The notes beneath the pieces were generated by a model. The model saw only the letters and a program-made list of their open reading frames with translations, searched no databases and had not been told where the DNA came from. A stretch of DNA of 64,000 bases. Source: the human T2T-CHM13v2.0 reference genome, Homo sapiens. The position numbers and the translations under genes are program-made. The stretch lies in the NCBI RefSeq assembly GCF_009914755.1, contig NC_060926.1. One strand, given 5' to 3'. Position 1 is the stretch's first letter; each line of letters starts with the position of its first letter. Positions 5,298 to 53,231 of the stretch are shown here, in pieces.

Positions 5298-5930
5298 GTT
5301 GTCAGTAGCCCAGTACAGGTTTTTGTCTTTGCAGTGCAAAAGAATTTGAAAGTGAGACTACAGTGAAAGTACAGAAGCTTTAATGTGGAGCAAAAGCAAG
5401 CATACACTCAGGAGTATGTGCATGTGTGCTCAAAAGAATGAGATATGCACAACATGGTCAGGGCTCAAATACTATATGGGTAAGCATAATGAAGTCACAG
5501 AGTATTCTATAATAAGGGGAAGGATTTTCTGGGAAATGGGTAGGCAATTCCCAGAATCAGGGGGTGCCACCCTTTTCTTGACTAAATGTGGTAAATCTGG
5601 TCATGGCATCAGGTGCATGATAAAAGTGAGAGGCTTCCCCATGGAAATTTTATGGTAATAGTGTCATACATTTTCTGATAAAAGGGTCAGCAGTAGATCA
5701 AGATTTTGGCCATTTTTAATTTAACCAGTTGTGGTCAGTTTCATCTTTGCTACAATCTTACTTGTGCCTAAAGCACGATGACAGCAATCTCTCTACATTG
5801 TTACAACCTGTTGTAACAGTTCCTTTCTACTAGAGGGAAGGTCCCTGTGCTAACCAGTTTGGCCCAGTTTGTTTTGCTTTTAGCCACCTGTAAGTAATTA
5901 TGCCTGTTCCCCCCGCTAACTGCTTGCCAC
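5298..5930 (-). mobile_element. ERV1-class solo LTR, old, family uncertain
   Basis: Starts tgttgtcagtagcccagtacaggtttttgtctttgcagtgcaaaagaatttg, similar to reverse-oriented MER4-group LTR ends. Confidence 0.45.
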
Positions 5931-7589: not shown

Positions 7590-8158
7590 ATTTAGGAGCT
7601 AGAAAACATACTTTTGCTACCATGCTATTTCTATCTTTGGTAGCAAAGCTTTGGAGTTCATGACAATGCATTCTTCTTCATTCAAAGAAGCCTTATTCTG
7701 TTCACTTTTCCAATTGAACTCAACCAAAATGTAGTTATTCAAAACAGTGCCATCTACTGAGAGAAAACAGTAACAGCTTTGAAAGTAACTGCTATTTTGA
7801 GTCCCGGCATGGGAATTTCTCTCCTACTCCTATTTACGATTAAACAAAAATACAGCAAACCCAGAGTAAGATCATTGTATCAGCTGCCACATTTCAACCT
7901 CTGATGGTTGCATACATGCATCTGCCTTCTTTTTATGTCTCTTTATTTTAAATAGCACAGGACAGCAGAAGGCATGGCCAGTCCCCAGCTCAGACCACCT
8001 GGGCAGGCTGCATGCCTGGTTGATGATGAAGGGAGAGATGGTGTTCCCAAGCATTTTCTGTAAGAGGCGCTAATCCTTAGTTGTGCTTTCTCTGTCCTGA
8101 GCAGATCCTCCTTTGGGGCATTATAGTGCTTGGAGCCTGCCTCTCTGGCTTAAGATAA

Positions 8159-8592
8159 TTTTTTTTTATTATACTTTAAGTTTTAGGGTACATGTGCACA
8201 ATGTGTAGGTTAGTTACATATGTATACGTATGCCATGCTGGTGTGCTGCACCCATTAAGTCGTCATTTAGTATTAGGTATATCTCCTAAAGCTATCCCTC
8301 CCCCCTCCCCCCACCCCACAACAGTCCCCAGAGTGTGATGTTCCCCTTCCTGTGTCCATGTGCTCTCATTGTTCAATTCCCACCTATGAGTGAGAACATG
8401 CGGTGTTTGGTTTTTTGTTCTTGTGATAGTTTACTAAGAATGATGATTTCCAATTTCATCCATGTCCCTACAAAGGACATGAACTCATCATTTTTTATGG
8501 CTGCATAGTATTCCATGGTGTATATGTGCCACATTTTCTTAATCCAGTCTATCATTGTTGGACATTTGGGTTGGTTCCAAGTCTTTGCTATT
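8159..8592 (-). mobile_element. 5'-truncated L1PA3-like LINE-1 (ORF2 C-terminus + 3'UTR)
   Basis: Poly(T) at 8159; ORF2 end [10 protein letters not shown]...SLIGGN; G-rich 3'UTR; no TSD found. Confidence 0.95.
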
Positions 8593-9219
8593 AACACTTC
8601 CAAGTGAAGTCTCCAAATCAATTTTTACTCTTGAACACATTCTAAACATCTTTAACCTTAACTGCCATTTCTTAATGACCCCTTTGGAGCCTTTCCTATA
8701 GCACATTAGTGGCATCTGCCCTGGAGGGCAGGGGGACAGAGGAATAGGGAACAAGGCGGTCCTTAGAGATATTTTGAGACTACCCACCTTCCTCCTCAAG
8801 CACATTCAAAACAATACTTAAAACAGAAGACCCTACATCACTCTTTGGAAATATATTTTCAGAAATTGCATCACCTTTTAATTTTTCAGTGGCAAAACAC
8901 TTTCTATTGACAACATTCCATATCTTAAAGGAGAATTACTAGTTAAGAACAACCAGATTGGTCTTGTTAATAAAAAATTAATGCTAGCCATCTTGGCTAA
9001 TTATATATGGATACCTGTGTGTGTATATGTATGTGTGCAAACATGGCTGTGCATACACACGTACACACACACTCCTTTGCCCTCCCATCAACATGAAGCA
9101 TTTCATCTGTGAAATGGGATTACAGATGATTTTGCTAATTCCCATCTTCATAAATTTCTACATTTCTAAATTTTCCACAATTAACGTGATTAACGTGTAT
9201 TATGTTTGCAATTTTAAAA

Positions 9220-34545: not shown

Positions 34546-36433
<1,888 letters not shown>

Positions 36434-37200
36434 TATTTGTTTTCAGATGTATAATTATTGGGTCAATAATCTTATACTCATGGCCACACAAGGCTCAATT
36501 ATTTTAAAAAATGTATGCCAATTTGACATTCCATCAACAATTCTTGAATATCTAAGTGAACCTTCATCAGTATTAAGTATTTTTTAAGTGTTTGCTAATT
36601 ATTAGGGGTATCAGTAATTCTTTTTGGATAGCAAATAATTCACCTCTCTGGAAATAGTTTAAGGTAAATAGTGTAAATTATTCAGGACTATATACATGTG
36701 TTTTAGAACTATGAGATGTCTTCTGGTAAAAGTGAATAAAATAAAGCAAATTTTTTTTAATATTTTTACTGAATATTTTATGTATCTATTGACCACATTA
36801 AATCACTTTTTAGTCTTATTTAAATCTGTGGCATCATTTGCTTTTAGTAATCTATAAAAATCTGCCAAATTCCATTTTCTAATCTAATTTTGGGGCATTT
36901 CTTCCCCAATTCTCCAATAGTAGAAATTCTGCCTGAATTTCTACTATTCCTATCTTCTTTAGATTAAGGGAGAGGGATTTTTTGACAATATAGCTACACG
37001 GGTCATGCGTATATTGATTAAATGCTGAGATAATTTTAATGACATTTTACTCCTTTCCACACACACAAATTGGTCTAAATTAAACAGATTCCCAATAAAA
37101 TATATATAATGTTATATAGTATTAAAGATACATATAATAAACATTAAATAAAAATATGTTATGAGGGTAGGTACCGATGAAAACATTAAAACTCAGGCAA

Positions 37201-38069: not shown

Positions 38070-38320
38070 CTGATAAACAAAATGTAGTATAACAATGCAA
38101 TGGAATATTTGCCATAAAAGAAATGAAGTACTGATATATACAACTACATGGATGAACCTGAAAACAGCTTGCTACAGAATGGGGATCGACTGATAATGGG
38201 TATAACATTTCTTTTCTGGGGTGATAAAATGTTCTGGAATTACATAGTGGTAATGGTTGCAAAACTCCGTGAATATCCTAAAAACCACCTAAGTGTATAC
38301 TTAAAACAGTGTATTTTGGT
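38070..38320 (+). mobile_element. L1MB-like 3' end fragment
   Basis: gaaatgaagtactgatatatacaactacatggatgaacc...ggggtgataaaatgttctggaatt. Confidence 0.65.
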
Positions 38321-38333
38321 GTCAGTGGAATAG

Positions 38334-39209
<876 letters not shown>

Positions 39210-39214
39210 ATAGG

Positions 39215-39847
39215 ACATTTTGACATGGCAGAATAGGAGGCTCCTTACTCTACTCCACCCACAGACATAGCCAATAAATATATATTCACAGATGACTTCC
39301 CTCTGACAGAAAATCAAAAACCAGTTGAGAAACTACTACCCGCTGGATAACTGAGAAAATATCCACATCATAAATGATGACATTAAAAACATGAAATGTG
39401 GAATCAGGGACAGTAAAAATACAGTGTGTGTGTTTGAGATCAAAATTAAGGTGTTATTGGCTTAAAATAACCAGTTATAAGAGATTTTATATATCCCTCA
39501 GGGTAACTATAAAGCAAAACCTATAATAGATAAACAAAAGAAAAAAATATATATCCAAACATACCACTACATAAAGCCATCAAACCATAAAGAAAAAAAA
39601 CAAGAGAGGTAGAAAACAACAAAGGATCTTAAAACAACTAGAAAACAATAAACAAAATGGAACTGGAAAAATTTTACCTGTCAATAATTACTTGAATGTA
39701 AGTGGATTAAATTATTTGATCAAAATGCATCTAGTGACTGAATGGATTAAGAAAGTAATAAGAGCTACATATATTTTGCCTCCAAGAGACTCATTTTACC
39801 TTAAAAGAAACCCATAGACTGAAAAAAACGAAAAACTGATATTCCAT
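39215..39847 (+). mobile_element. L1M (L1MA-like) 5' piece and start of ORF2 endonuclease
   Basis: aacaaaatgg...tcaataattacttgaatgtaagtggattaa...caagagactcatttt...gatattccat. Confidence 0.7.
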
Positions 39848-40902
39848 ACTTCCTTGGTCAGTGGGGAAAAGTGCCCCACCTGCTCTGAAGAACAAGGAGG
39901 AGGTGGACCCCCATTCCTCTAGAGATCTAATCATCAGTGTGGACCACCCCTAAGGGAGGGAAAAGTACAGCCCACCAAAGCCCCGCCTTGTGTCAAGGGA
40001 AGCACAAGCATGGCACCAGACACTGACATGGAGAGGGAATCATCTATTCCCCACTGCCCCTCTCTTTAGTGCACTATTGCAAACTCAGCAGTGACTCTTC
40101 CCATTGGGGCCCAGAGAGTGTGGGCTAAAAGAGTGTGCTCCTCAGTCTTCTCCAGCAGCACCAACCCCACTGAAGGCAAATGCACACTGAGGAAAGGCAT
40201 ATTTTGTGCTTCTTCATTGCCTCTGCCCCATCTCTACTTGTTGGAGCTTACTCTTAAGTAAGGACTGCAGCCTGAATTCTACAACCAAATGCAATTACCT
40301 CACTATAACAATTAACATCTGAGAAAGCTACAAAACTAACTACAGCCAAGAAACCCATACAGAGCCTTGGCATCCTGAAAGCACCCCAAAACAAGGCCAT
40401 TTAATAATATACAATATACATCACAGTAATACCTCCAAGGGAAAAAAAAGAGTAAATAATCAAGAAGCCCAATTAAAACAATAGCAAATTCAAGGAAGAA
40501 AGTAGAAGAAGAGAAGAAGGAGAGGGAGAAGGAGAAGAAGGAGAAAGAAAGTGTCAGCTCCTCTGATGGGAAAGAATCAGCACAAGAACTCTGGCAAGAC
40601 AATGAAAAAAAAACAAAAAAACAAAAACACAAAGTGTTTCATCAGCTCCAAAGGATCTCATTAACTACTCAGCAATAGATCCTAACCAGAATGAAATGTC
40701 TAAAATGACACATATAGAATCCACAATATGGATGAAAACAAATTCAATGAGATCCAAGAGAAAGTTGAAATGTAACAGAAAGAAGCCAGAAAAAGGATCA
40801 AAAATTTGAAGTACCTAACTGTATTTAAAAAATGAATAAACAGAACTGCTGGAATTAAGAAGTTCAAATTTTAAAAAATATTTCAAACTATCATTTGAAG
40901 CC
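39848..40902 (+). mobile_element. L1PB/L1PA16-like 5'UTR and ORF1 N-terminus
   Basis: GC-richer UTR, then agaatcagcacaagaactctggc...gatcctaaccagaatgaaatgtct...aatgagatccaagagaaagttgaaa. Confidence 0.65.
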
Positions 40903-41123
40903 TTTTTTATTTTATTATTATTATACTTTAAGTTTTAGGGTACATGTGCACAATGTGCGGGTTAGTTACAGATGGATGCATGTGACATGATGGTGTGCTG
41001 CACCCATTAACTCGTCATTTAGCATTAGGTATATCTCCCAATGCTATCCCTCCCCCCTCCCCCCACCCCACAACAGTCCCCAGAGTGTGATGTTCCCCTT
41101 CTGTGTCCATGTGTTCTCATTGT

Positions 41124-44942
<3,819 letters not shown>

Positions 44943-45005
44943 TATGATGTTAGCTGGTTATTTTGCTAGTTAGTTGATGCAGTTTCTTCCTAGCCTTGAT
45001 GGTCT

Positions 45006-46022
45006 TTACAATTTGGCATGTTTTTGCAGTGGCTGGTATCGGTTGTTCCTTTCCATGTTTAGTGCTTCCTTCAGGAGCTCTTTTAGGGCAGGCCTGGTGG
45101 TGACAAAATCTCTCAGCATTTGCTTCTCTGTAAAGGATTTTATTTCTCCTTCACTTATGAAGCTTAGTTTGACTGGATATGAAATTCTGGGTTGAAAATT
45201 CTTTTCTTTAAGAATGCTGAATATTGGCCCCCACTCTCTTCTGGCTTGTAGAGTTTCTGCCGAGAGATCCACTGTTAGTCTGATGGGCTTCCCTTTCTGG
45301 GTAACCCGACCTTTCTCTCTGGCTGCCCTTAACATTTTTTCCTTCATTTCAACTTTGGTGAATCTGACAATTTTGTGTCTTGGAGTTGCTCTTCTCGAGG
45401 AGTATCTTTGTGGCATTCTCTGTATTTCCTGAATTTGAATGTTGGCCTGCCTTGCTAGATTGGGGAAGTTCTCCTGGATAATATCCTGCAGAGTGTTTTC
45501 CAACTTGGTTCCATTCTCCCCGTCACTTTCAGGTACACTAATCAGATGTAGATTTGGTCTTTTCACATTGTCCCATATTTCTTGGAGGCTTTGTTCATTT
45601 CTTTTTATTCTTTTTTCTCTAAACTTTTCTTCTTGCTTCATTTCATTCATTTGATCTTCCATCAGTGATACCCTCCCTTCCAGTTGATCAAATCAGCTAC
45701 TGAGGCTTGTGCATTCGTCACGTAGTTCTCATGCCTTGGTTTTCAGCTCCATCAGGTCCTGTAAGGACTTCTCTGCATTGGTTATTCTAGTTAGCCATTC
45801 GTCTAATTTTTTTTCAAGTTTCTCAACTTCTTTGCCATGGGTTGGAACTTCCTTCTTTAGCTCAGAGTTGTTTGATTGTCTGAAGCCTTCTACTCTCAAC
45901 TCATCAAAGTTATTCTCTGTCCAGCTTTGTTCCATTGCTGGTGAGGAAATGCGTTCCTTTGAAGGAGGAGAGGTGCTCTGATTTTTAGAGTTTCCAGTTT
46001 TTCTGCTCTGCTTTTTCCCCAT
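45006..46022 (-). pseudogene. L1 ORF1p, disrupted
   Basis: MGKKQSRKTGNSKNQS... ends prematurely at 45729; resumes to ...RYQPLQKHAKL. Confidence 0.93.
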
Positions 46023-46595
46023 CTTTGTGGTATTATCTACCTTTGGTCTGTGATGATGGTGACATACAGATGGGGTTTTGGTGTGGATGTCCTTTCCATT
46101 TGTTACTTTTCCTTCTAACAGTCAGGACCCTCAGCTGCAGGTCTGTTGGAGATTGCTGGAGGTCCACTCCAGACCATTTGCCTGGGTATCAGCAGTGGAG
46201 GCTGCAGAACAGTGGATATTGGTGAACAGAAACTGTTGCTGCCTGATCGTTCCTCTGGAAGTTTTGTCTCAGAGGAGTACCTGGCCGTGTGAGGTGTCAG
46301 TCTGCCCCTACAGGGGGTTGCCTCCCACTTAGGCTACTCGGGGGTCATGGACCCACTTGAGGAGGCAGTCTGTCCGTTCTCAGATCTCAAGCTGCATCCT
46401 GGGAGAACCACTACTCTCTTCAAAGCTGTCAGACAGGGACATTTAAGTCTGCAGAGATTTCTGCTTCCTTTTGTTTGGCTATTTCCTGCCCCCAGAGGTG
46501 GAGTCTACAGAGGCAGGCAGGCCTCCCTGAGCTGCAGTGGGCTCCATCCAGTTTGAGCTTCCCGGCCACTTTGTTTACCTACTCAAGCCTTGGCA

Positions 46596-46772
46596 ATGGC
46601 AGGCACCCCTCCCCCAGCCTCGCTGCCACCTTGCAGTTTGATCTCAGACTGCTGTGCTAGCAATGAGCAAGGCTCCGTGGGTGTAAGACCCTCTGAGCCA
46701 GGTGCGGGATATAATCTCCTGGTGTGCCATTTGCTAAGACCGTTGGAAAGCGCAGTATTAGGGTGGGAGTGA
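46596..46772 (+). pseudogene. L1 ORF0 homolog (antisense 5'UTR ORF), frameshifted C-terminus
   Basis: MAGTPPPASLPPCSLISDCCASNEQGSVGV matches the primate L1 ORF0 N-terminus; position ~440 nt from the L1 5' end. Confidence 0.8.
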
Positions 46773-47235
46773 CCCAATTTTCCAGGTGCCATCTGTCACC
46801 CCTTTCTTTGACTAGGAAAGGGAATTCCCTGACCCCTTGTGCTGCCCAGGTGAGGCAATGCCTCACCCTGCTTTGGCTCACGCTCGGTGCACTGCACCCA
46901 CTGTCTGACACTCCCCAGTGAGATGAACCCGGTACCTCAGTTGGAAATGCAGAAATCACTCGTCTTCTGCGTCACTCATGCTGGGAGCTGTAGATTGGAG
47001 CTATTCCTATTCGACCATCTTGGCTCCACCCCCAATTTCATGTTTTTAAAGGCTACATAGTACTCTATTGTGTATACACACCAAATATTTGTATACATTC
47101 ACCCACAGATAGGCACTACAGTTGTTTCCATATTGTGGCTCTTGTGACTAATGCTGCAATCAATATGGGAGTGTAGCTATCTCTTCAACGCACTGATTTC
47201 ATTTCTTTGGATGTATACCCAGTAGTGGCAGAGCT

Positions 47236-47688
47236 GTGAAACCCACCCAATAGTCCCATAGGCAACTTTTTGAATAAATATAGAAATTGACCTTTCTGGT
47301 CTTAAAGCTTGAAACTTACATTCATTTTTTCTGCATTCCTTCCCCAGGAAATGACCATCAGGCCTCTAAACAAAAGTATCAAAGAATTGAAACTCATCCA
47401 TCACCACATCCAGACAATGCAGTGCAGGCTTCCTTATTCATCATGATTGTTTTCTTGCCCCTCTCTAGTTCCTGTTTTCTTACATATTGTTACATGTGTT
47501 CCCTGCTCTATAACCCCCTCATTGTAGTTGGTCAGGGAAATTGATTTGAGACTGATATCCCACCTCCTTGGTTGCAGCACCCCGTTAAATCCTTCTTCCT
47601 TCTTCCTGGCACTACTCATTGTCCTAATCATTGGCTTTCTTTGTGGTGAGCTGCAGGACCTACACTGGACCCCTGGCCTTTTGGTTAT
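47236..47688 (+). mobile_element. ERV1-class solo LTR (LTR45/MER4-group-like) nested in L1MA
   Basis: tgaaacccacccaatagtcccatagg...agaaattgacctttctggtcttaaagcttgaaacttac. Confidence 0.65.
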
Positions 47689-50234
47689 CTGTGGATCATT
47701 AGTGATTGTATTTTTAGTTTTTTGAAGAGGCTTCATATTGTTTTCCAAAGTGGCTGTACTAATTTACAATGCCACTGATGTTGTACAAGGGTTCTCTTTT
47801 TTCTATACCTTCCCCACACTTGTTATTTGTTGTCTTTTTGATAAGAGATGATCTAACATGTGTGAGATGATATTTTATTGTGGATTTAATTTGCATTTCT
47901 CTGATGATTGGAGAGGTTCAGCACTTTTTCCTATATCTGTAGTCCATTTCTATGTATTCTTTTGAGAAATTACTATTTAGAACCTTTGTCCATTTTTAAT
48001 TAGGGTTATTTCTTTTTTTTGTTATTCAGTTGTATGAGTTCCTTGTGTATTTTAAATATTAGCCTCTAATCCAATCTATGATTTGCAAATGTTTTCTCCC
48101 AGGTTGTGGGTTGTCTTTTCATTCTGTTAATTGTTTCCTTTGATGTTTAGAAAGCTTTCAGATCAATGCAGTGACATTTGTCTGTTTTTGTCCATCACAG
48201 TGATTTCACATAGCTCCAGACTTATGCCATGGAGCTTTACCACTATGTTTATGTTCTCCTCTAGTAGTTTTACAGTTTCAGCTCATATATTTTAAGTCTT
48301 TAGCCCATTTTGAGTTGATTCCTGTATAAGGGGTAAGAAAATCGTTTACTTTTATTCTTCTGCATGTGGATATCCAATTTTCCCAACACCATTTATTGAA
48401 GAGACTGTTCTTTTCCCATTGTGTGTTACTGGCACTTTTTTCAAAAATTAATAGACTGTAATTGTGGGTGTTTATTTCTGAACTCTCTATCCTAGTTCAT
48501 TGGATGATGTATCTGTTTTATGCCAGCACCATGCTGTTTTGACGACTATAGCTTTGTAAAGTGTTTTGGAATCTGGTGGTGTGATGCCTCTAGCTTTGTT
48601 CTTTTTGCTCAAGATGGCTTTGGCGTGGCCTTTTGTGGTTTCATGTGAATTTTATAACTTCTCTTTCTATTTCTGTGAAGAATGACCTTGAGACTTTGAT
48701 TGAGATTGCATAGAGTCTATGAATGGCTTTGGGTAGTACAGATATTTTAAAAATATTCTTTCAATACATTAACACAGAAAATCTTTCAGTTTATTTGTGT
48801 CATCTTCAATTTCTTTCATCAATGTTTTACCATTTTCAGTATATAGATCTTTCACATTCTTGGTTAAATTTATTCCTAAGTATTTTATTTTATATTTGGT
48901 GCTATTGTAAATTGGTTTATTTTTTTATTTTTTAAAAAGATAGTTCATTGTTAGTGTGCAGAAATGCAACTGGTTTTTGTAAGGTGAATTTGTTTTCTGC
49001 AACTTCACTGAATTTCTTTGGCAATTCTAAGAGATTTTGGGAGGAGTCTTTAGAATTTTCTCTATATAAGATCATATCATTAGCAAACAGAACATCTCAC
49101 TTCCTCCTTTTCTATTTGCATGACTTTCTTTGTTTTTCTTGCTTAATTTTTCTGGCTGGAACTTTTAGTACTATGCTAAACATAGTGGTGTGAAGAGGCA
49201 TCTTTGTCCTGTTTTTTATTTTAGAGGAAAAGCCTTCAACTTTTCACCATTGATTATGATGTTAGCTGTGGGCTTATTGTATATAGCCTTTATTGTGTTG
49301 AGAAACATTCCTTTTATACCTAATTTATTGACAGTTTTTTTAATCATGAAAAGATGTTAAATTTAGTCAAATGCTTTTTTTGTGTGTTGATTGAGATATT
49401 GATATGTTTTTGTCCTTCATTCTGTTATTAAATTATGTTGCATCTATTGATTTGTATATGTTGAATCATCCTTGCATCCCAAGGATAAATCCCACTTGAT
49501 TATGGCAAATGATCTTTTTAATGTACTTTTGAATATAGTTTGCTTGTATTTTGTTGACAATATTTTTATCTGTGTTCATTAGGAATAATAGTCTGTAGTT
49601 TTGTTTTCTTATAGTGTTTTTCTTTGGCTTTGGCATTGGGATAATTCTGGCCTTGTAAATTGAGTTTGGAAGTGCTTCCTCCACTTCAGGTTTTGCAAAG
49701 GTTTGAATAGGATTGGTATTAGTTCTTCTTTAAATGTTTGGTAGAATTGAGCCATAAAGTTATGAGGTCTTGGGGTTTTCTTTGATGTGAGACTTAATTG
49801 ATTATGTAATCTCCTTACTCATTATTGGTCTGTTCAGATTTTCTATTTTATTGTGTTTTAGTCTTGCTAGGTAATGTTTCTAGGAATTTACCCATTTCTA
49901 TCAGATTATTTAATTTGTTGACATATAGTTGTTTATAGTAATCTTATGATTATTTGTATTTCTATGTTATCAGTTGTAATGTCTCCTCTTTCATTTCTGA
50001 ATTTAATGAGGCCTCTCTTAGTTTGTGTAGCTAAAGGTTTGTCAATTTTGTTTAGCTTTTCAAATAACCAACTCATAGATTCATCGATATCTTTAAGTGT
50101 TTTAACACCTCTGTTTTATTTATTTTTGCTCTGGTCTTTGTTATTTCTTTCCTTTGTGCTAACTTTGGGCTTAGTTTGTTCTTTTTTTATTCCCCTAGTT
50201 CCTTGAGGTGTAACACTGGGTTGTTTGAGATCTT

Positions 50235-50376
50235 TCTTTTCTTTTTTTTTTTTTTAAATAGTATTATTTTTAGAGGCAAAGTCTTACAATATAGCCCACG
50301 CTGGGTTTGAACTCAGGCTGAATTGATCCTCCCTCTGAGTGGGAGAGAGTACAGGCATGCAGCATTGCACATGGGA
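50235..50376 (-). mobile_element. FLAM/Alu monomer, diverged
   Basis: Poly(T), then gtcttacaatatagcccacgctgggtttgaactc...tgatcctccc...tacaggcatgc. Confidence 0.6.
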
Positions 50377-51129
50377 TTGTTTTTTATTTTCTTTAGGAAG
50401 AAAAAAAGAATTAGTGTAAGTTTCCTTCTTAGAACTGTTTTTGTTGCACCCCATAAATTTTGATATGTTGTGTTCTATTTTTACATGCTAAAGATATTTT
50501 TAATTTTTGCCTATAATTTCTTCTTTGACCCAATACTTGTTCTAGAGCACATTGTTTAGTGTCCACATGTTTGTTAATTTCCCATGATTCATCCTGTTAT
50601 TGAATTCTAGTCTCAAAGCGTCATGGTTGTAAAAGACGCATAACATGATTTAATCTTCCTAAATTTGTTAAGACTTGTTTTGTGCCTAACATATGATCTA
50701 ACTTGGAGAATGATAGATGTATACTTGAAAAGAAGGTGTATTCTGTTGCTGTTGGGTGGAAAACTCTGTGTATATCTGTTAGATACGTTTGCTCTATAGT
50801 TGAAATCTAATGTTTCCTTATTGATTTTCTGACTGGTCAATCTATTGTTTGAAGTGGGGAACTGAAATCCCCTACTATTACTGTGTTGCAATCTATATCT
50901 TTGTTCAGATCTCTTAATGCTTGTTTTATATATTTAGGAGCTCCCAATTTGGGGTGCATGTTTCTGTATAATTCTTATATCCCCTTGATGAGTTAATTGC
51001 TTTATCACTATATAATAACCTTCTTTGTGTCTTTTAACAGTTTTTGACATAAAGTCTGTTTTCTCTGAAATAATAGATGTAGCTACCTCTGCTTTTACAT
51101 TCCACGTGCATGGAATATCTTTTAAAAAA

Positions 51130-51210
51130 TATTTTATTTTATTTTTATTTTAGATCCAGAAGGTACATGCGTGGGTTTGTTATGTGGATATATTGCATGA
51201 TGCAGATGTT
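51130..51210 (-). mobile_element. L1PB/PA16-like extreme 3' end with tail
   Basis: ttttattttagatccagaaggtacatgcgtgggtttgttatgtggatatattgcatgatgc. Confidence 0.75.
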
Positions 51211-51670
51211 ATCCATTCGTCTAATTTTTTTTCAAAGTTTTTAACTTCTTTGCCATTGGTTCAAACTTCCTCCTGTAGCTCGGAGTAGTTTGATCATCTG
51301 AAGCCTTCTTCTCTCAACTCGTCAAAGTCATTCTCCATCCAGCTTTGTTCTGTTGCTGGTGAGGAGCTGCATTCCTTTGGAGGAGGAGAGGTGCTCTGAT
51401 TTTTAGAGTTTCCAGTTTTTCTGCTCTGTTTTTTGCCCACCTTTGTGGTATTATCTACCTTTGGTCTTTGATGATGGTGATGTACAGATGGGTTTTGGTG
51501 TCCCATCTGTACACCTTGATGTCCTTCCTGTTTGTTGGTTTACGTTCTAACCGACAGGACCCTCAGCTGCAGGTCTGTTGGAGTTTGCTAGAGGTCCACT
51601 CCAGACCCTGTTTGCCTGGGTATCAGCAGTGGTGGCTGCAGAACAGTGGATATTGTTGAACCGCCAATGC
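51211..51670 (-). mobile_element. L1PA3/4 5'UTR-ORF1 junction fragment
   Basis: GKKQSRKTGNSKNQSTSPPPKE peptide; homologous to 45795-46235. Confidence 0.9.
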
Positions 51671-51885
51671 GGGAAAAAAATGCCAGACAAGAATTTTATA
51701 TTCTGCAAAACTAAGCTTAATAAGTGAAGGAGAAAAATGTCTTTTCCAGACAAGCAAATGCTAAGGGAATTCATCACCATAGGACTGGCCCTACAAGAGA
51801 TGCTTAGTGGAGTTCTAAATATGGAAATAAAATGATGATATCTGCTATGAAAGCACACACAAGCACATAGCCATGGACACTGTAA
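51671..51885 (+). mobile_element. L1PB/PA16-like ORF1 C-terminal fragment
   Basis: aagaattttatattctgcaaaactaagcttaataagtgaaggag...caagcaaatgctaagggaattcatcacc. Confidence 0.7.
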
Positions 51886-51921
51886 ACCTCATTTACAGTG
51901 GTAAACCTGTAAACCTTCCAG

Positions 51922-52069
51922 TTCAAGGAGAACTACAAACCACTGCTCAATGAAATAAAAAAGGATACAAAGAAATGGAAGAACATTCCATGCTCATGGG
52001 TAGGAAGAATCAATATCATGAAAATGGCCATACTGCCCAAGGTAATTTATGGATTCAATGCCATCCCCA
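51922..52069 (+). mobile_element. L1PA3/4 ORF2 fragment (~150 bp)
   Basis: ttcaaggagaactacaaaccactgctc...ttcaatgccatcccca; homologous to 35011-35158. Confidence 0.9.
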
Positions 52070-52073
52070 ATGC

Positions 52074-52631
52074 CTATAAGAAAGGCTCCAAAGGGGTCAT
52101 TAAGAAATGGCAGTTAAGGTTAAAGATGTTTAGAATGTGTTCAAGAGTAAAAATTGATTTGGAGACTTCACTTGGAAGTGTTAATAGCAAAGACTTGGAA
52201 CCAACCCAAATGTCTAACAATGATAGACTGGATTAAGAAAATGTGGCACATATACACCATGGAATACTATGCAGCCATAAAAAATGGTGAGTTCATGTCC
52301 TTTGTAGGGACATGGATGAAATTGGAAATCATCATTCTCAGTAAACTATCGCAAGAACAAAAAACCAAACACTGCATGTTCTCACTCATAGGTGGGAATT
52401 GAACAATGAGAACACATGGACACAGGAAGGGGAACATCACACTCCGGGGACTGTTGTGGGGTGGGGGGAGGGGGGAGGGATAGCATTAGGAGATATACCT
52501 AATGCTAAATGACGAGTTCATGGGTGCAGCACACCAGCATGGCACATGTATACATATGTAACTAACCTACACATTGTGCACATGTACACTAAAACTTAAA
52601 GTATAATAATAATAAAATAAAATAAAATAAA
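52074..52631 (+). repeat. Inverted duplicate of 8159-8701: 109 bp unique DNA plus L1PA3 3' end and tail
   Basis: 52074-52182 is the reverse complement of 8593-8701 with 1 mismatch; identical flank/L1 junction. Confidence 0.95.
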
Positions 52632-53195
52632 GAAATGAAAGTGGGACATCGCTACTGATTTCATAGAAATAAAAATGATTATGGAAGAATACTATGAACA
52701 ACAGTACATGAACAACTTGGATACCCTAGATGAAATAGACAAGTTCCTAGAAACACACGATATACTAAACTGACTTGTGAAAGAATAGAAAATATGAACA
52801 GACTCACAGCTAATAAAGAGAACAAAGAAAAGCCTAGAGCTAGATAGCTTCAGTGGCATATTCCACTGAACATTTAAATGCGAACAAAAACCCTCTCAAA
52901 CTCTTCAAAAAATTGGAGACAGAAAAATACCTCCCTCATTCTATGACTCACCTAGAATAGTGAAATTTATGGAGAGAGAAGGTAGAAGTTACCAGGGATT
53001 GGAGGAGAAGGTAATAGAGACATTTTTAGTGAGTATAGTTTCTGTTTGGGATAATGAAAAAGTTCTGGAAATGGATAGTGATGATGGTTACATAACGTTG
53101 TGAATGTACTTAAAGCTACTTAATAGTACACTTAAAAATAGTTAAAATAATAGTGAATTATATGTTACGTATATTTTACAATTCTTAAAATAAAT
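52632..53195 (+). mobile_element. Old L1M ORF2 fragment and L1MB-like 3' end
   Basis: gaatactatgaacaac...ctagatgaaatagacaagttcctag; gtttctgtttgggataatgaaaaagttctggaaatggatagtg. Confidence 0.75.
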
Positions 53196-53231
53196 GTAAT
53201 CCTTGTGGTTGTTACTCCACTACCACAGAAT

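What the first reader, a model, noticed from the sequence alone, without database searches (positions are those of the whole stretch)
39838..51670. Fossil ~10.8-kb inversion revealed by a target-site duplication split onto opposite strands
Seen: the + strand L1M ORF2 piece stops at GATATTCCAT (39838-39847) and is followed by an L1PB/PA16-like 5'UTR/ORF1. About 11 kb away, the minus strand reads: L1PB/PA16-like 3' tail (51210->51130), then AAAAGATATTCCAT (51123->51110), then the direct continuation of the same L1M endonuclease sequence (...gcacgtggaatgtaaaagcagaggtagct). The nested element's ORF1 C-terminus reappears on the + strand at 51671. Inference: one L1PB/PA16-like element inserted into the L1M with this TSD. 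The block 40903-51670 was later flipped, and most of the nested L1 was lost. Both breakpoints abut L1PA3/4 sequence, which suggests a hominoid-era event.
Basis: partly seen in the sequence, partly recalled or inferred. Interest (0 to 1): 0.8.

Follow-up and report, generated by a model that had tools for sequence, protein, structure and literature searches.

The report
Fossil L1-associated inverted rearrangement
Two halves of one ancient L1 repeat, split by a younger L1 and still carrying its 14-base target-site duplication, lie on opposite strands, so a few kilobases of intronic junk DNA were truly flipped long ago, probably while another L1 was inserting; this is neat but ordinary genome archaeology.

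Summary
In 11 of 11 uninterrupted L1M copies fetched from the same genome, the + strand piece ending at 39847 and the - strand piece starting at 51123 are collinear on one strand. They overlap by exactly 14 nt, the AAAAGATATTCCAT target-site duplication. One copy abuts the 5' part of a nested L1. The other abuts an A-rich tail and the 3' end of the same L1 family.

The stated history is only partly right. Flipping 40903-51670 back does not restore order, because the nested L1's ORF1 C-terminus (51671-51886, + strand) stays misplaced. At least two reversals, or a three-break event, are needed.

The inverted host DNA is 47034-51670. The 40903-47033 stretch is a full-length L1PA with canonical ends but no target-site duplication. 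Its poly(A) sits on a TT/AA step in the nested L1. Its 5' end joins L1M DNA 14 nt past a TTT/AAAA site.

My best reading, at about 45%, is mis-joining of L1-endonuclease breaks during that insertion, as described in cancer and cell models. Timing (hominoid era) and mechanism need primate orthologues, which these tools lack. No function is implied. It is a new member of a known kind.

The parts
39371..39847 (+). A: 5' piece of the old L1M (inter-ORF region and start of ORF2), itself 5'-truncated
   Evidence: L1M homology starts at 39358-39454 in 11 relatives, 7 of them at 39371. Identity to the relatives is 72-76%.
39834..39847 (+). Left copy of the 14-nt target-site duplication, now AACTGATATTCCAT
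   Evidence: 14-nt overlap in 11 of 11 relatives.
39848..40904 (+). B: nested L1, 5'-truncated 5'UTR plus the N-terminal part of ORF1; ends at the TT of a TT/AA step
   Evidence: Genome search gave 59 matches at 63-78%. Relatives continue upstream of B's start. After B's end they read AACAGC, AACAAC or AGCAAC.
40903..47033 (-). C: full-length L1PA (6131 nt) with a tail at 40903 and a canonical 5' end at 47033; no target-site duplication
   Evidence: In 5 of 8 other L1PA copies homology begins at C position 1-3, behind unrelated flanks. No duplication was found.
47034..51109 (-). D: continuation of the same L1M ORF2, inverted. It holds a ~0.5-kb non-L1 insert at about 47237-47742. Its last 14 nt (47047->47034, AAAAACATGAAATT) follow a TTT/AAAA site.
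   Evidence: Collinear with C as ruler at 66-70%. One fragment gave an RVT_1 hit below cut-off. The site frequency by chance is 1.6%.
51110..51123 (-). Right copy of the target-site duplication, AAAAGATATTCCAT
51124..51210 (-). E: A-rich tail and last ~75 nt of the nested L1
   Evidence: Matches the 3' ends of 3 of 6 family relatives (L035, L036, L038) at 75-77%.
51208..51670 (-). F: internal L1PA fragment (end of 5'UTR plus start of ORF1, positions 807-1244 of C); no poly(A), no duplication
   Evidence: Identity is 94-95% to its best genomic copies and 90% to C, with a 15-nt indel. It shares a 3-nt overlap (AAC) with E.
51671..51921 (+). G: ORF1 C-terminus and start of the inter-ORF region of the nested L1 family; homology runs to ~51886 and the last ~35 nt are unassigned
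   Evidence: Pfam Tnp_22_dsRBD. All 6 of 6 relatives match at 74-80%. Seven of the top 40 genome hits lie in elements that also match B.
51922..52632 (+). H-I-J: a composite of an L1PA ORF2 fragment (51922-52071), a 109-nt unique piece (52074-52182) and an L1PA 3' end with tail (52183-52632). I+J is a copy of 8701-8156. No duplication flanks it.
   Evidence: 15 mismatches in 536; no duplication.
52633..53200 (+). K-L: a different old L1M, made of an ORF2 piece joined to a 3' end; right flank of the rearranged stretch
   Evidence: K is 77.7% identical to D's homologous part and 69.4% to C, so it is neither the same copy as D nor the nested family. L matches another L1M 3' end at 38208-38306.
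8156..8701 (-). Source locus of I+J: a 5'-truncated L1PA 3' end plus 109 nt of its unique upstream flank
   Evidence: The unique part has only these two copies in the genome, 99% alike.

Best explanation
This is a fixed, ancient, L1-associated complex rearrangement inside an intron of LINC01594.

Shown steps:
(1) An old L1M, 5'-truncated at ~39371, was hit in ORF2 by a slightly 5'-truncated L1 of an older primate family. This made a 14-nt duplication, AAAAGATATTCCAT.
(2) Today the L1M 5' piece with the nested L1's 5' part (39371-40904) is on the + strand. The nested L1's 3' tail, the second duplication copy and 4 kb of L1M ORF2 (51210->47034) are on the - strand. They sit between two + strand ORF1 pieces of the nested L1. 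So about 4.6 kb of host DNA (47034-51670) is inverted.

Inferred step:
(3) The flip arose when the full-length L1PA at 40903-47033 integrated. Reverse transcription was primed at a TT/AA nick in the nested L1's ORF1. The finished copy was not joined to the other side of that nick. It was joined to a second staggered L1-endonuclease break about 10 kb away in the L1M, 14 nt past a TTT/AAAA site, in inverted orientation. The outcome was an exchange among ORF2p-made ends, or a fold-back inverted duplication of the far segment.

About 480 nt of ORF1 and most of the nested L1 were lost. A later composite retrocopy without duplication (51922-52632) probably removed the rest.

No function is implied.
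For: The flip and the nested insertion:
- 11 of 11 L1M relatives show collinearity and a 14-nt overlap.
- B, G and E belong to one family.

The full-length L1PA (C) as the bridge:
- Its 5' end is canonical and it has a tail.
- No target-site duplication was found.
- Its tail abuts ...GAAGCCTT. Of 4 relatives examined, 3 aligned to this point, and 2 of the 3 continue with AA. TT/AA steps occur at 0.76% of positions.
- Its 5' end abuts L1M DNA exactly 14 nt downstream of TTT/AAAA. Only 1.6% of positions in D have such a site 7-20 nt upstream.

Why a clean inversion is not enough: G is on the + strand to the right of the block.

Other support:
- F and C have similar divergence from their nearest genomic copies, 5-7%.
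- H-I-J also lacks a duplication. Its tail meets AGAAATGAAAG, where D's homologue reads AAATTTAGAAATGAAAG.
- L1 insertions with local inversion, inverted duplication or exchange between ORF2p-made ends, with the staggered-break feature kept, are described in bioRxiv 10.1101/2024.12.14.628481 (passages read).
Against: - The reciprocal junction expected from a two-site exchange is absent. That junction would be a second L1 tail followed by AAAAACATGAAATT and the rest of the L1M. It is not in the window. A genome scan for eight A followed by the last nine bases of that duplication (AAAAAAAACATGAAATT) gave 29 hits, none on this chromosome, against 56 for the reversed control.
- The TT/AA step is a weak endonuclease site, and one of the three aligned relatives reads TT/AG.
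- F (463 nt of L1PA with no tail) at the right junction is not explained directly. It needs either a pre-existing L1PA inside the nested L1 or a patch.
- A ~10-kb span is at the upper end of what the cited paper reports for local remodelling.
- Simultaneity of the insertion and the flip cannot be shown from one genome.
Confidence: 0.45

Rival explanations
1. An older rearrangement unrelated to L1 integration (two nested inversions, or a three- to four-break cut-and-paste) produced the order B / inverted D-E-F / G. The full-length L1PA and the H-I-J composite inserted later, by chance at or near the junctions. Their target-site deletions erased the junctions and their own duplications.
For: - Both elements lack duplications. 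Such insertions with target deletions are a known class; the Sen et al. 2007 listing (PMC1920257) was seen only as title and abstract start.
- The tail of C on a TT/AA step fits ordinary priming.
- G on the + strand needs more than one break pair anyway.
Against: - It needs two independent insertions without duplication to land exactly on two of three novel junctions within ~12 kb.
- It leaves the TTT/AAAA site 14 nt from C's 5' junction as a 1.6% coincidence.
Confidence: 0.25
2. One reading: the L1PA (C) had inserted normally into the L1M, making the duplication AAAAACATGAAATT. Then one two-break inversion flipped 40903-51670, with breakpoints at the end of C's tail and at the 5' edge of F.
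For: - The TTT/AAAA site exactly 14 nt upstream of C's 5' end is what a canonical insertion into the L1M would leave.
- C, D, E and F are all on the - strand and contiguous.
- L1PA homology of F ends at 51670.
Against: - Un-flipping leaves C's tail next to G, not next to a second AAAAACATGAAATT. That word is unique in the window.
- G stays displaced from B.
- The breakpoint would have to fall within the ~25-nt tail of C.
- The break in the nested L1 would fall on a TT/AA step by chance, roughly 2%.
Confidence: 0.12
3. Replication-based template switching (fold-back or MMBIR-type), without L1 enzymes, made an inverted duplicate of F-E-TSD-D(-C) inside the nested L1's ORF1. The original copy downstream was deleted later.
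For: - Short overlaps occur at junctions: AAC at E|F and AATG-like at H|I.
- A templated 546-nt copy of a locus 43 kb away lies in inverted orientation beside the block.
- This model explains why G is on the + strand to the right of the inverted piece.
Against: - No second copy of D survives. K is only 77.7% like D.
- The F|G junction is blunt to within ~2 nt.
- Both tail-bearing elements end on endonuclease-like sites, which this model does not predict.
Confidence: 0.1
4. There was no rearrangement. The two L1M pieces are unrelated copies that happen to end at the same place, or the assembly is wrong.
For: L1M fragments are abundant here. Other pieces lie at 38080-38320 and 52633-53200.
Against: - There is an exact 14-nt overlap in 11 of 11 relatives.
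- One end meets an L1 5' part and the other meets the tail of the same L1 family.
- The junctions lie in diverged, unique combinations that occur once in a telomere-to-telomere assembly.
Confidence: 0.03

Closest known systems
L1 insertions with local inversion or inverted duplication, or with exchange between ORF2p-made break ends (Mendez-Dorantes et al., bioRxiv 10.1101/2024.12.14.628481; passages read)
   Same: A tail-bearing L1 sits at a rearrangement junction on an endonuclease-type site. There is no normal duplication around it. Host DNA beside it is inverted. A staggered-break distance (14 nt) is kept at the partner end.
   Different: Those cases are somatic or experimental and mostly under a few kb. 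Here the event is germline, fixed, ~12+ Myr old and about 10 kb in span. The reciprocal junction is not preserved, and an extra tail-less L1PA fragment sits at the second junction.
Retrotransposon recombination-mediated inversion, RRMI (Lee et al. 2008, PMC2603318; passages read)
   Same: Inversions of 0.2-81 kb with L1 at the breakpoints. Mismatched target-site duplications are used to infer the ancestral state.
   Different: RRMI needs two homologous elements in inverted orientation that become chimeric. Here the left junction is B (+) against the tail of C (-), not a chimera, and no inverted partner of C spans the other breakpoint.
Twin priming (5'-inverted L1 insertions; recalled from Ostertag and Kazazian 2001, and mentioned in the passages)
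   Same: An L1-related strand flip with a small overlap at the junction.
   Different: In twin priming only the inserted L1 is inverted and the flanks keep one orientation. Here the flanks themselves (the two L1M halves) are on opposite strands. The geometry is also wrong for a twin-primed L1M, because the inverted 5' piece lies downstream of the 3' piece.
L1 insertion-mediated deletion and endonuclease-independent L1 insertion (Sen et al. 2007, PMC1920257: listing and abstract start only; Han et al. 2005, recalled)
   Same: L1 copies without target-site duplications at sites where host DNA was lost. F is a tail-less internal fragment, like the repair patches described there.
   Different: Those classes describe deletions, not a strand flip of the neighbouring DNA.

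Membership tests
Nested L1 insertion with target-site duplication | The host element is contiguous across the insertion, with a 7-20 nt duplicated overlap | tested here: met
   A 14-nt overlap in 11 of 11 intact L1M relatives.
Nested L1 insertion with target-site duplication | One duplication copy abuts the L1 5' part; the other follows its A-rich tail; both parts belong to one family | tested here: met
   B, G and E match the same relatives. The tail precedes AAAAGATATTCCAT.
Simple two-break inversion | Parts of one ancestral unit lie on opposite strands | tested here: met
   A is on the + strand and D on the - strand.
Simple two-break inversion | Flipping one block back restores collinearity on both sides | tested here: not met
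   With 40903-51670 (or 47034-51670) flipped back, G still lies beyond D and C. The order +1 -3 +2 needs at least two reversals.
Simple two-break inversion | An uninverted orthologue exists in an outgroup | not testable with these tools
   No primate genomes are held. No paralogue of the junctions exists in the human genome.
RRMI (recombination between inverted retrotransposons) | Chimeric homologous elements in inverted orientation span both breakpoints | tested here: not met
   The left junction is the ORF1 of an old L1 against the tail of C. F and C are on the same strand and only 90% alike.
Twin priming | Flanking host DNA keeps one orientation; only the L1's 5' part is inverted | tested here: not met
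   The flanks (L1M halves) are on opposite strands.
L1 (ORF2p)-induced rearrangement | Poly(A) of the bridging L1 sits on an endonuclease-type site at one breakpoint | tested here: met
   The tail follows GAAGCCTT. Of 4 relatives examined, 3 aligned to this point, and 2 of the 3 continue with AA. The chance is about 0.8% per position. The T-rich/A-rich endonuclease consensus is recalled, not from a call.
L1 (ORF2p)-induced rearrangement | The bridging L1 lacks a target-site duplication | tested here: met
   The best cross-match is 7 nt, which is the chance level.
L1 (ORF2p)-induced rearrangement | The partner end shows a staggered-break signature | tested here: met
   TTT/AAAA lies 14 nt upstream of C's 5' junction. 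The chance expectation is 1.6%.
L1 (ORF2p)-induced rearrangement | The reciprocal junction carries the complementary ends | tested here: not met
   There is no second AAAAACATGAAATT in the window. No tail-plus-duplication word occurs on chromosome 2.
   No consensus library was available. Only relative divergences were measured.

The most novel reading that the evidence does not exclude
One multi-break event in the germline of a Miocene ape ancestor, a small chromoplexy-like shuffle made by L1 ORF2p. Several endonuclease breaks within ~15 kb were mis-joined at once, and two reverse-transcribed copies acted as bridges. One is the full-length L1PA primed at 40904. The other is the H-I-J composite primed at ~52632, which copied an intronic LINC01594 transcript piece from 43 kb away. 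If so, this would be a fixed germline fossil of a process so far documented in tumours and engineered cells.
Probability: 0.15. Interest if true: 0.55.

Novelty: new member of a known kind. Interest (0 to 1): 0.33.

Why it matters
It shows that a split target-site duplication can expose an old strand flip from one genome alone, and that such a call can be checked against intact copies of the same repeat.

If the L1-integration reading holds, it would be a germline, fixed counterpart of L1-induced inversions known from cancer genomes. That would bear on how much L1 activity reshaped primate genomes beyond simple insertions.

The locus is intronic repeat DNA of a lncRNA, with no annotated functional element. 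No phenotypic consequence is expected.

Tried and rejected
- **Pfam on 16 stop-free fragments.** Only G (Tnp_22_dsRBD, two fragments) and one D fragment (RVT_1, below cut-off) gave L1-related hits. The fragments were too short to place the endonuclease domain, so I used nucleotide alignments instead.
- **K as the nested L1's ORF2.** This would make B, G and K collinear. Rejected: K is 77.7% like D but 69.4% like C, and it gives only 128-133-nt matches in 2 of 6 loci holding family relatives.
- **L1M 3' ends as the missing end of the split L1M.** The piece at 38080-38320 overlaps D's last ~50 nt as a different copy (by eye). The piece at 52951-53200 is left open.
- **Cross-matching duplications between C, P1, Y, H-I-J and F (the RRMI signature).** The best scores were C 5' flank against J 3' flank (11 of 13) and P1 5' flank against C 3' flank (12 of 17). 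Both lie in sequence explained by L1M or L1 homology, so I treat them as chance.
- **H as a copy of the nearby L1PA at 35011-35158 (96.6%).** Rejected: other genomic copies are 97-99% alike.
- **B starting at the family's true 5' end.** Rejected: relatives share sequence upstream of it.
- **Genome scan for the lost reciprocal end.** It gave 29 hits, none on chromosome 2, against 56 for the control.
- **Not possible with these tools:** primate orthologues, pangenome or Strand-seq calls, and RepeatMasker names.
Full report
**What is there**

GATATTCCAT lies at 39838-39847 on the + strand. AAAAGATATTCCAT lies at 51123->51110 on the - strand and is preceded there by an A-rich tail.

I had no repeat library, so I used two rulers. 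The first is the full-length L1PA inside the window (40903-47033, called C here). The second is real copies from the same genome, which turned out to be searchable.

- Against C, the + piece aligns up to just before the duplication. The - piece starts in it and runs collinearly on the - strand down to 47034.
- A genome search with 39400-39847 gave 40 matches. I examined the 11 best foreign loci (L010-L020).
- In 11 of 11, the homologue of the + piece is followed on the same strand by the homologue of the - piece.
- In 11 of 11, the two window ends project onto a 14-nt overlap reading like AAAAGATATTCCAT.

So the two pieces are halves of one L1M, split with a 14-nt target-site duplication. The left copy has since changed to AACTGATATTCCAT.

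**The nested element**

Window 39848-40902 (B) has 59 genomic matches at 63-78%. I fetched six loci that hold relatives.

- The relatives carry a B-type 5'UTR and ORF1 start.
- All 6 of 6 carry a homologue of 51671-51886 (G) in the ORF1 C-terminal position, at 74-80%.
- 3 of 6 carry a homologue of 51210->51130 (E) at their very 3' end, followed by an A-rich tail.
- Pfam places G in the L1 ORF1 dsRBD-like domain.
- Seven of the top 40 genomic hits of G lie in elements that also match B.

B, G and E therefore belong to one old L1 family. B follows one duplication copy, and E with its tail precedes the other. This is the signature of a single insertion.

Two corrections apply. B is not the family's true 5' end, because relatives continue upstream. 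And L1M homology on the left begins at ~39371, not 39215.

**Why it is not a clean inversion**

The present order on the + strand is as follows.

| Piece | Coordinates | Strand | What it is |
|---|---|---|---|
| A | 39371-39847 | + | L1M 5' piece |
| B | 39848-40904 | + | nested L1 5'UTR and ORF1 N-part |
| C | 40903-47033 | - | full-length L1PA |
| D | 47034-51109 | - | L1M ORF2 continuation |
| TSD | 51110-51123 | - | right duplication copy |
| E | 51124-51210 | - | nested L1 tail |
| F | 51208-51670 | - | L1PA positions 807-1244 |
| G | 51671-51921 | + | nested L1 ORF1 C-terminus |
| H-I-J | 51922-52632 | + | composite retrocopy |
| K-L | 52633-53200 | + | a different L1M |

Flipping 40903-51670 back gives A-TSD-B-F-E-TSD-D-C-G. 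The nested L1's ORF1 C-terminus then lies beyond the L1M and beyond C. With B, G and E+D as markers 1, 2 and 3, the present order is +1 -3 +2. That needs at least two reversals, or one inverted transposition.

G could in principle come from a second element of the same family. I think that unlikely, because G falls exactly in the part missing from the nested L1.

K is not the nested L1's ORF2 and not a copy of D. It is 77.7% identical to D's homologous part and 69.4% to C.

**The junctions**

*C and its two ends.* C begins at the position where 5 of 8 other L1PA copies begin, behind unrelated flanks. It ends in a tail. It has no target-site duplication. Its 5' flank word AAAAACATGAAATT is unique in the window, and the flank comparisons reach only chance level.

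- The tail is attached to ...GAAGCCTT in B. Of 4 relatives examined, 3 aligned to this point, and 2 of the 3 continue with AA. That is a TT/AA step, present at 0.76% of positions.
- The 5' end is attached to D exactly 14 nt downstream of TTT/AAAA. Only 1.6% of positions in D have such a site 7-20 nt upstream.

One end thus looks like a primed first-strand nick in the nested L1. The other looks like the staggered second-strand end of a different endonuclease break in the L1M.

*F.* F is an internal L1PA fragment without a tail.
- It is 94-95% identical to its best genomic copies, while C is 93-94% identical to its own best copies.
- F and C are 90% alike and differ by a 15-nt indel. They are different subfamilies of similar age.
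- F overlaps E by AAC and meets G bluntly.

*H-I-J.* This composite has a tail but no duplication.
- Its I+J part copies 8701-8156, including 109 nt of unique flank that occur only at these two places in the genome.
- There are 15 mismatches in 536. That is roughly 12-14 Myr at a recalled rate of 1.0-1.2e-9 per site per year, and more at slower rates.

No other genomic locus carries the E|F|G or G|H|I junctions.

**Mechanism**

A preprint I read in passages (10.1101/2024.12.14.628481) documents L1 insertions with inversion or inverted duplication of nearby host DNA. It also documents intrachromosomal inversions made by exchange between ORF2p-made break ends, and it notes that the staggered-break feature is often kept.

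The left junction here fits that description on both sides. A fold-back variant would also explain why G stays on the + strand to the right of the inverted piece.

I therefore favour, at about 45%, an L1-integration-associated rearrangement in the era of C, followed by loss of the remaining nested L1, perhaps at the H-I-J insertion.

The evidence against this reading is as follows.
- The reciprocal junction is missing.
- The TT/AA site is weak.
- F needs an extra assumption.
- Simultaneity cannot be shown from one genome.

The rivals are:
- an older, L1-independent complex rearrangement with later duplication-less insertions at the junctions (25%);
It explains the TTT/AAAA site, but it does not explain the tail on TT/AA, the unique flank word, or G;
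- replication-based template switching (10%);
- chance or misassembly (3%).

RRMI (PMC2603318, passages read) and twin priming fail their defining features here.

**Date and limits**

C differs from the L1PA at 34555-36403 by 5.1% over 1850 nt. It differs from its nearest genomic copies by 4-7%.

The date applies to the flip only if C made the junction. If C came later, the flip could be anywhere between the nested L1's arrival and C.

No primate genome, pangenome or repeat library was available, so subfamily names and the ancestral state remain untested.

Papers seen only as listings are PMC1920257, PMC2912911, 10.1101/2024.08.27.596794 and 10.1101/2025.02.02.635956.

**Verdict**

It is too simple about the block and unproven about the date. 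The locus is intronic repeat DNA with no annotated functional element. I score it as a new member of a known kind, of modest interest.

Noticed in passing
8156-8701 (-) and 52074-52619 (+): An inverted two-copy repeat 43 kb apart. It consists of a 5'-truncated L1PA 3' end plus 109 nt of its unique upstream flank, with 15 mismatches in 536. The unique part occurs nowhere else in the genome. The right copy is fused by an AATG-like overlap to an unrelated L1PA ORF2 fragment and has a different, longer tail. It looks like a chimeric retrocopy of an intronic LINC01594-strand transcript, or else a templated DNA insertion.
   Followed up: partly
34555-36435 (+): A 5'-truncated L1PA whose body jumps from about position 5814 of C straight into an (ATA)n/(AAAT)n tail, an internal deletion at a GTA overlap. 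No clear target-site duplication was found. Its last 124 nt are 99.2% identical to the start of the L1PA piece at 8469-8592, which is closer than typical L1PA pairs here (92-95%).
   Followed up: partly
47237-47742 (-): About 0.5 kb inside the inverted L1M ORF2 that does not align to L1. It is probably an older insertion of another repeat and was not identified.
   Followed up: no
38330-39210 with 38715-39031: An LTR-like stretch ending in ...TGTTTCA just left of the L1M piece. It is interrupted by a young Alu with a clean duplication (AAGCTTTTGCATTC on both sides). This was read by eye only.
   Followed up: no
38080-38320 (+) and 52951-53200 (+): Two further L1M 3'-end fragments, 75% alike over 100 nt. 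The left one overlaps the last ~50 nt of D's coordinates, so it is a separate copy. Whether the right one is the lost 3' end of the split L1M stays open.
   Followed up: partly
52946-52955: The ORF2 piece K joins the 3'-end piece L at a short TATGA-like overlap. This is either an internal deletion within one L1M or another junction of the rearrangement.
   Followed up: no
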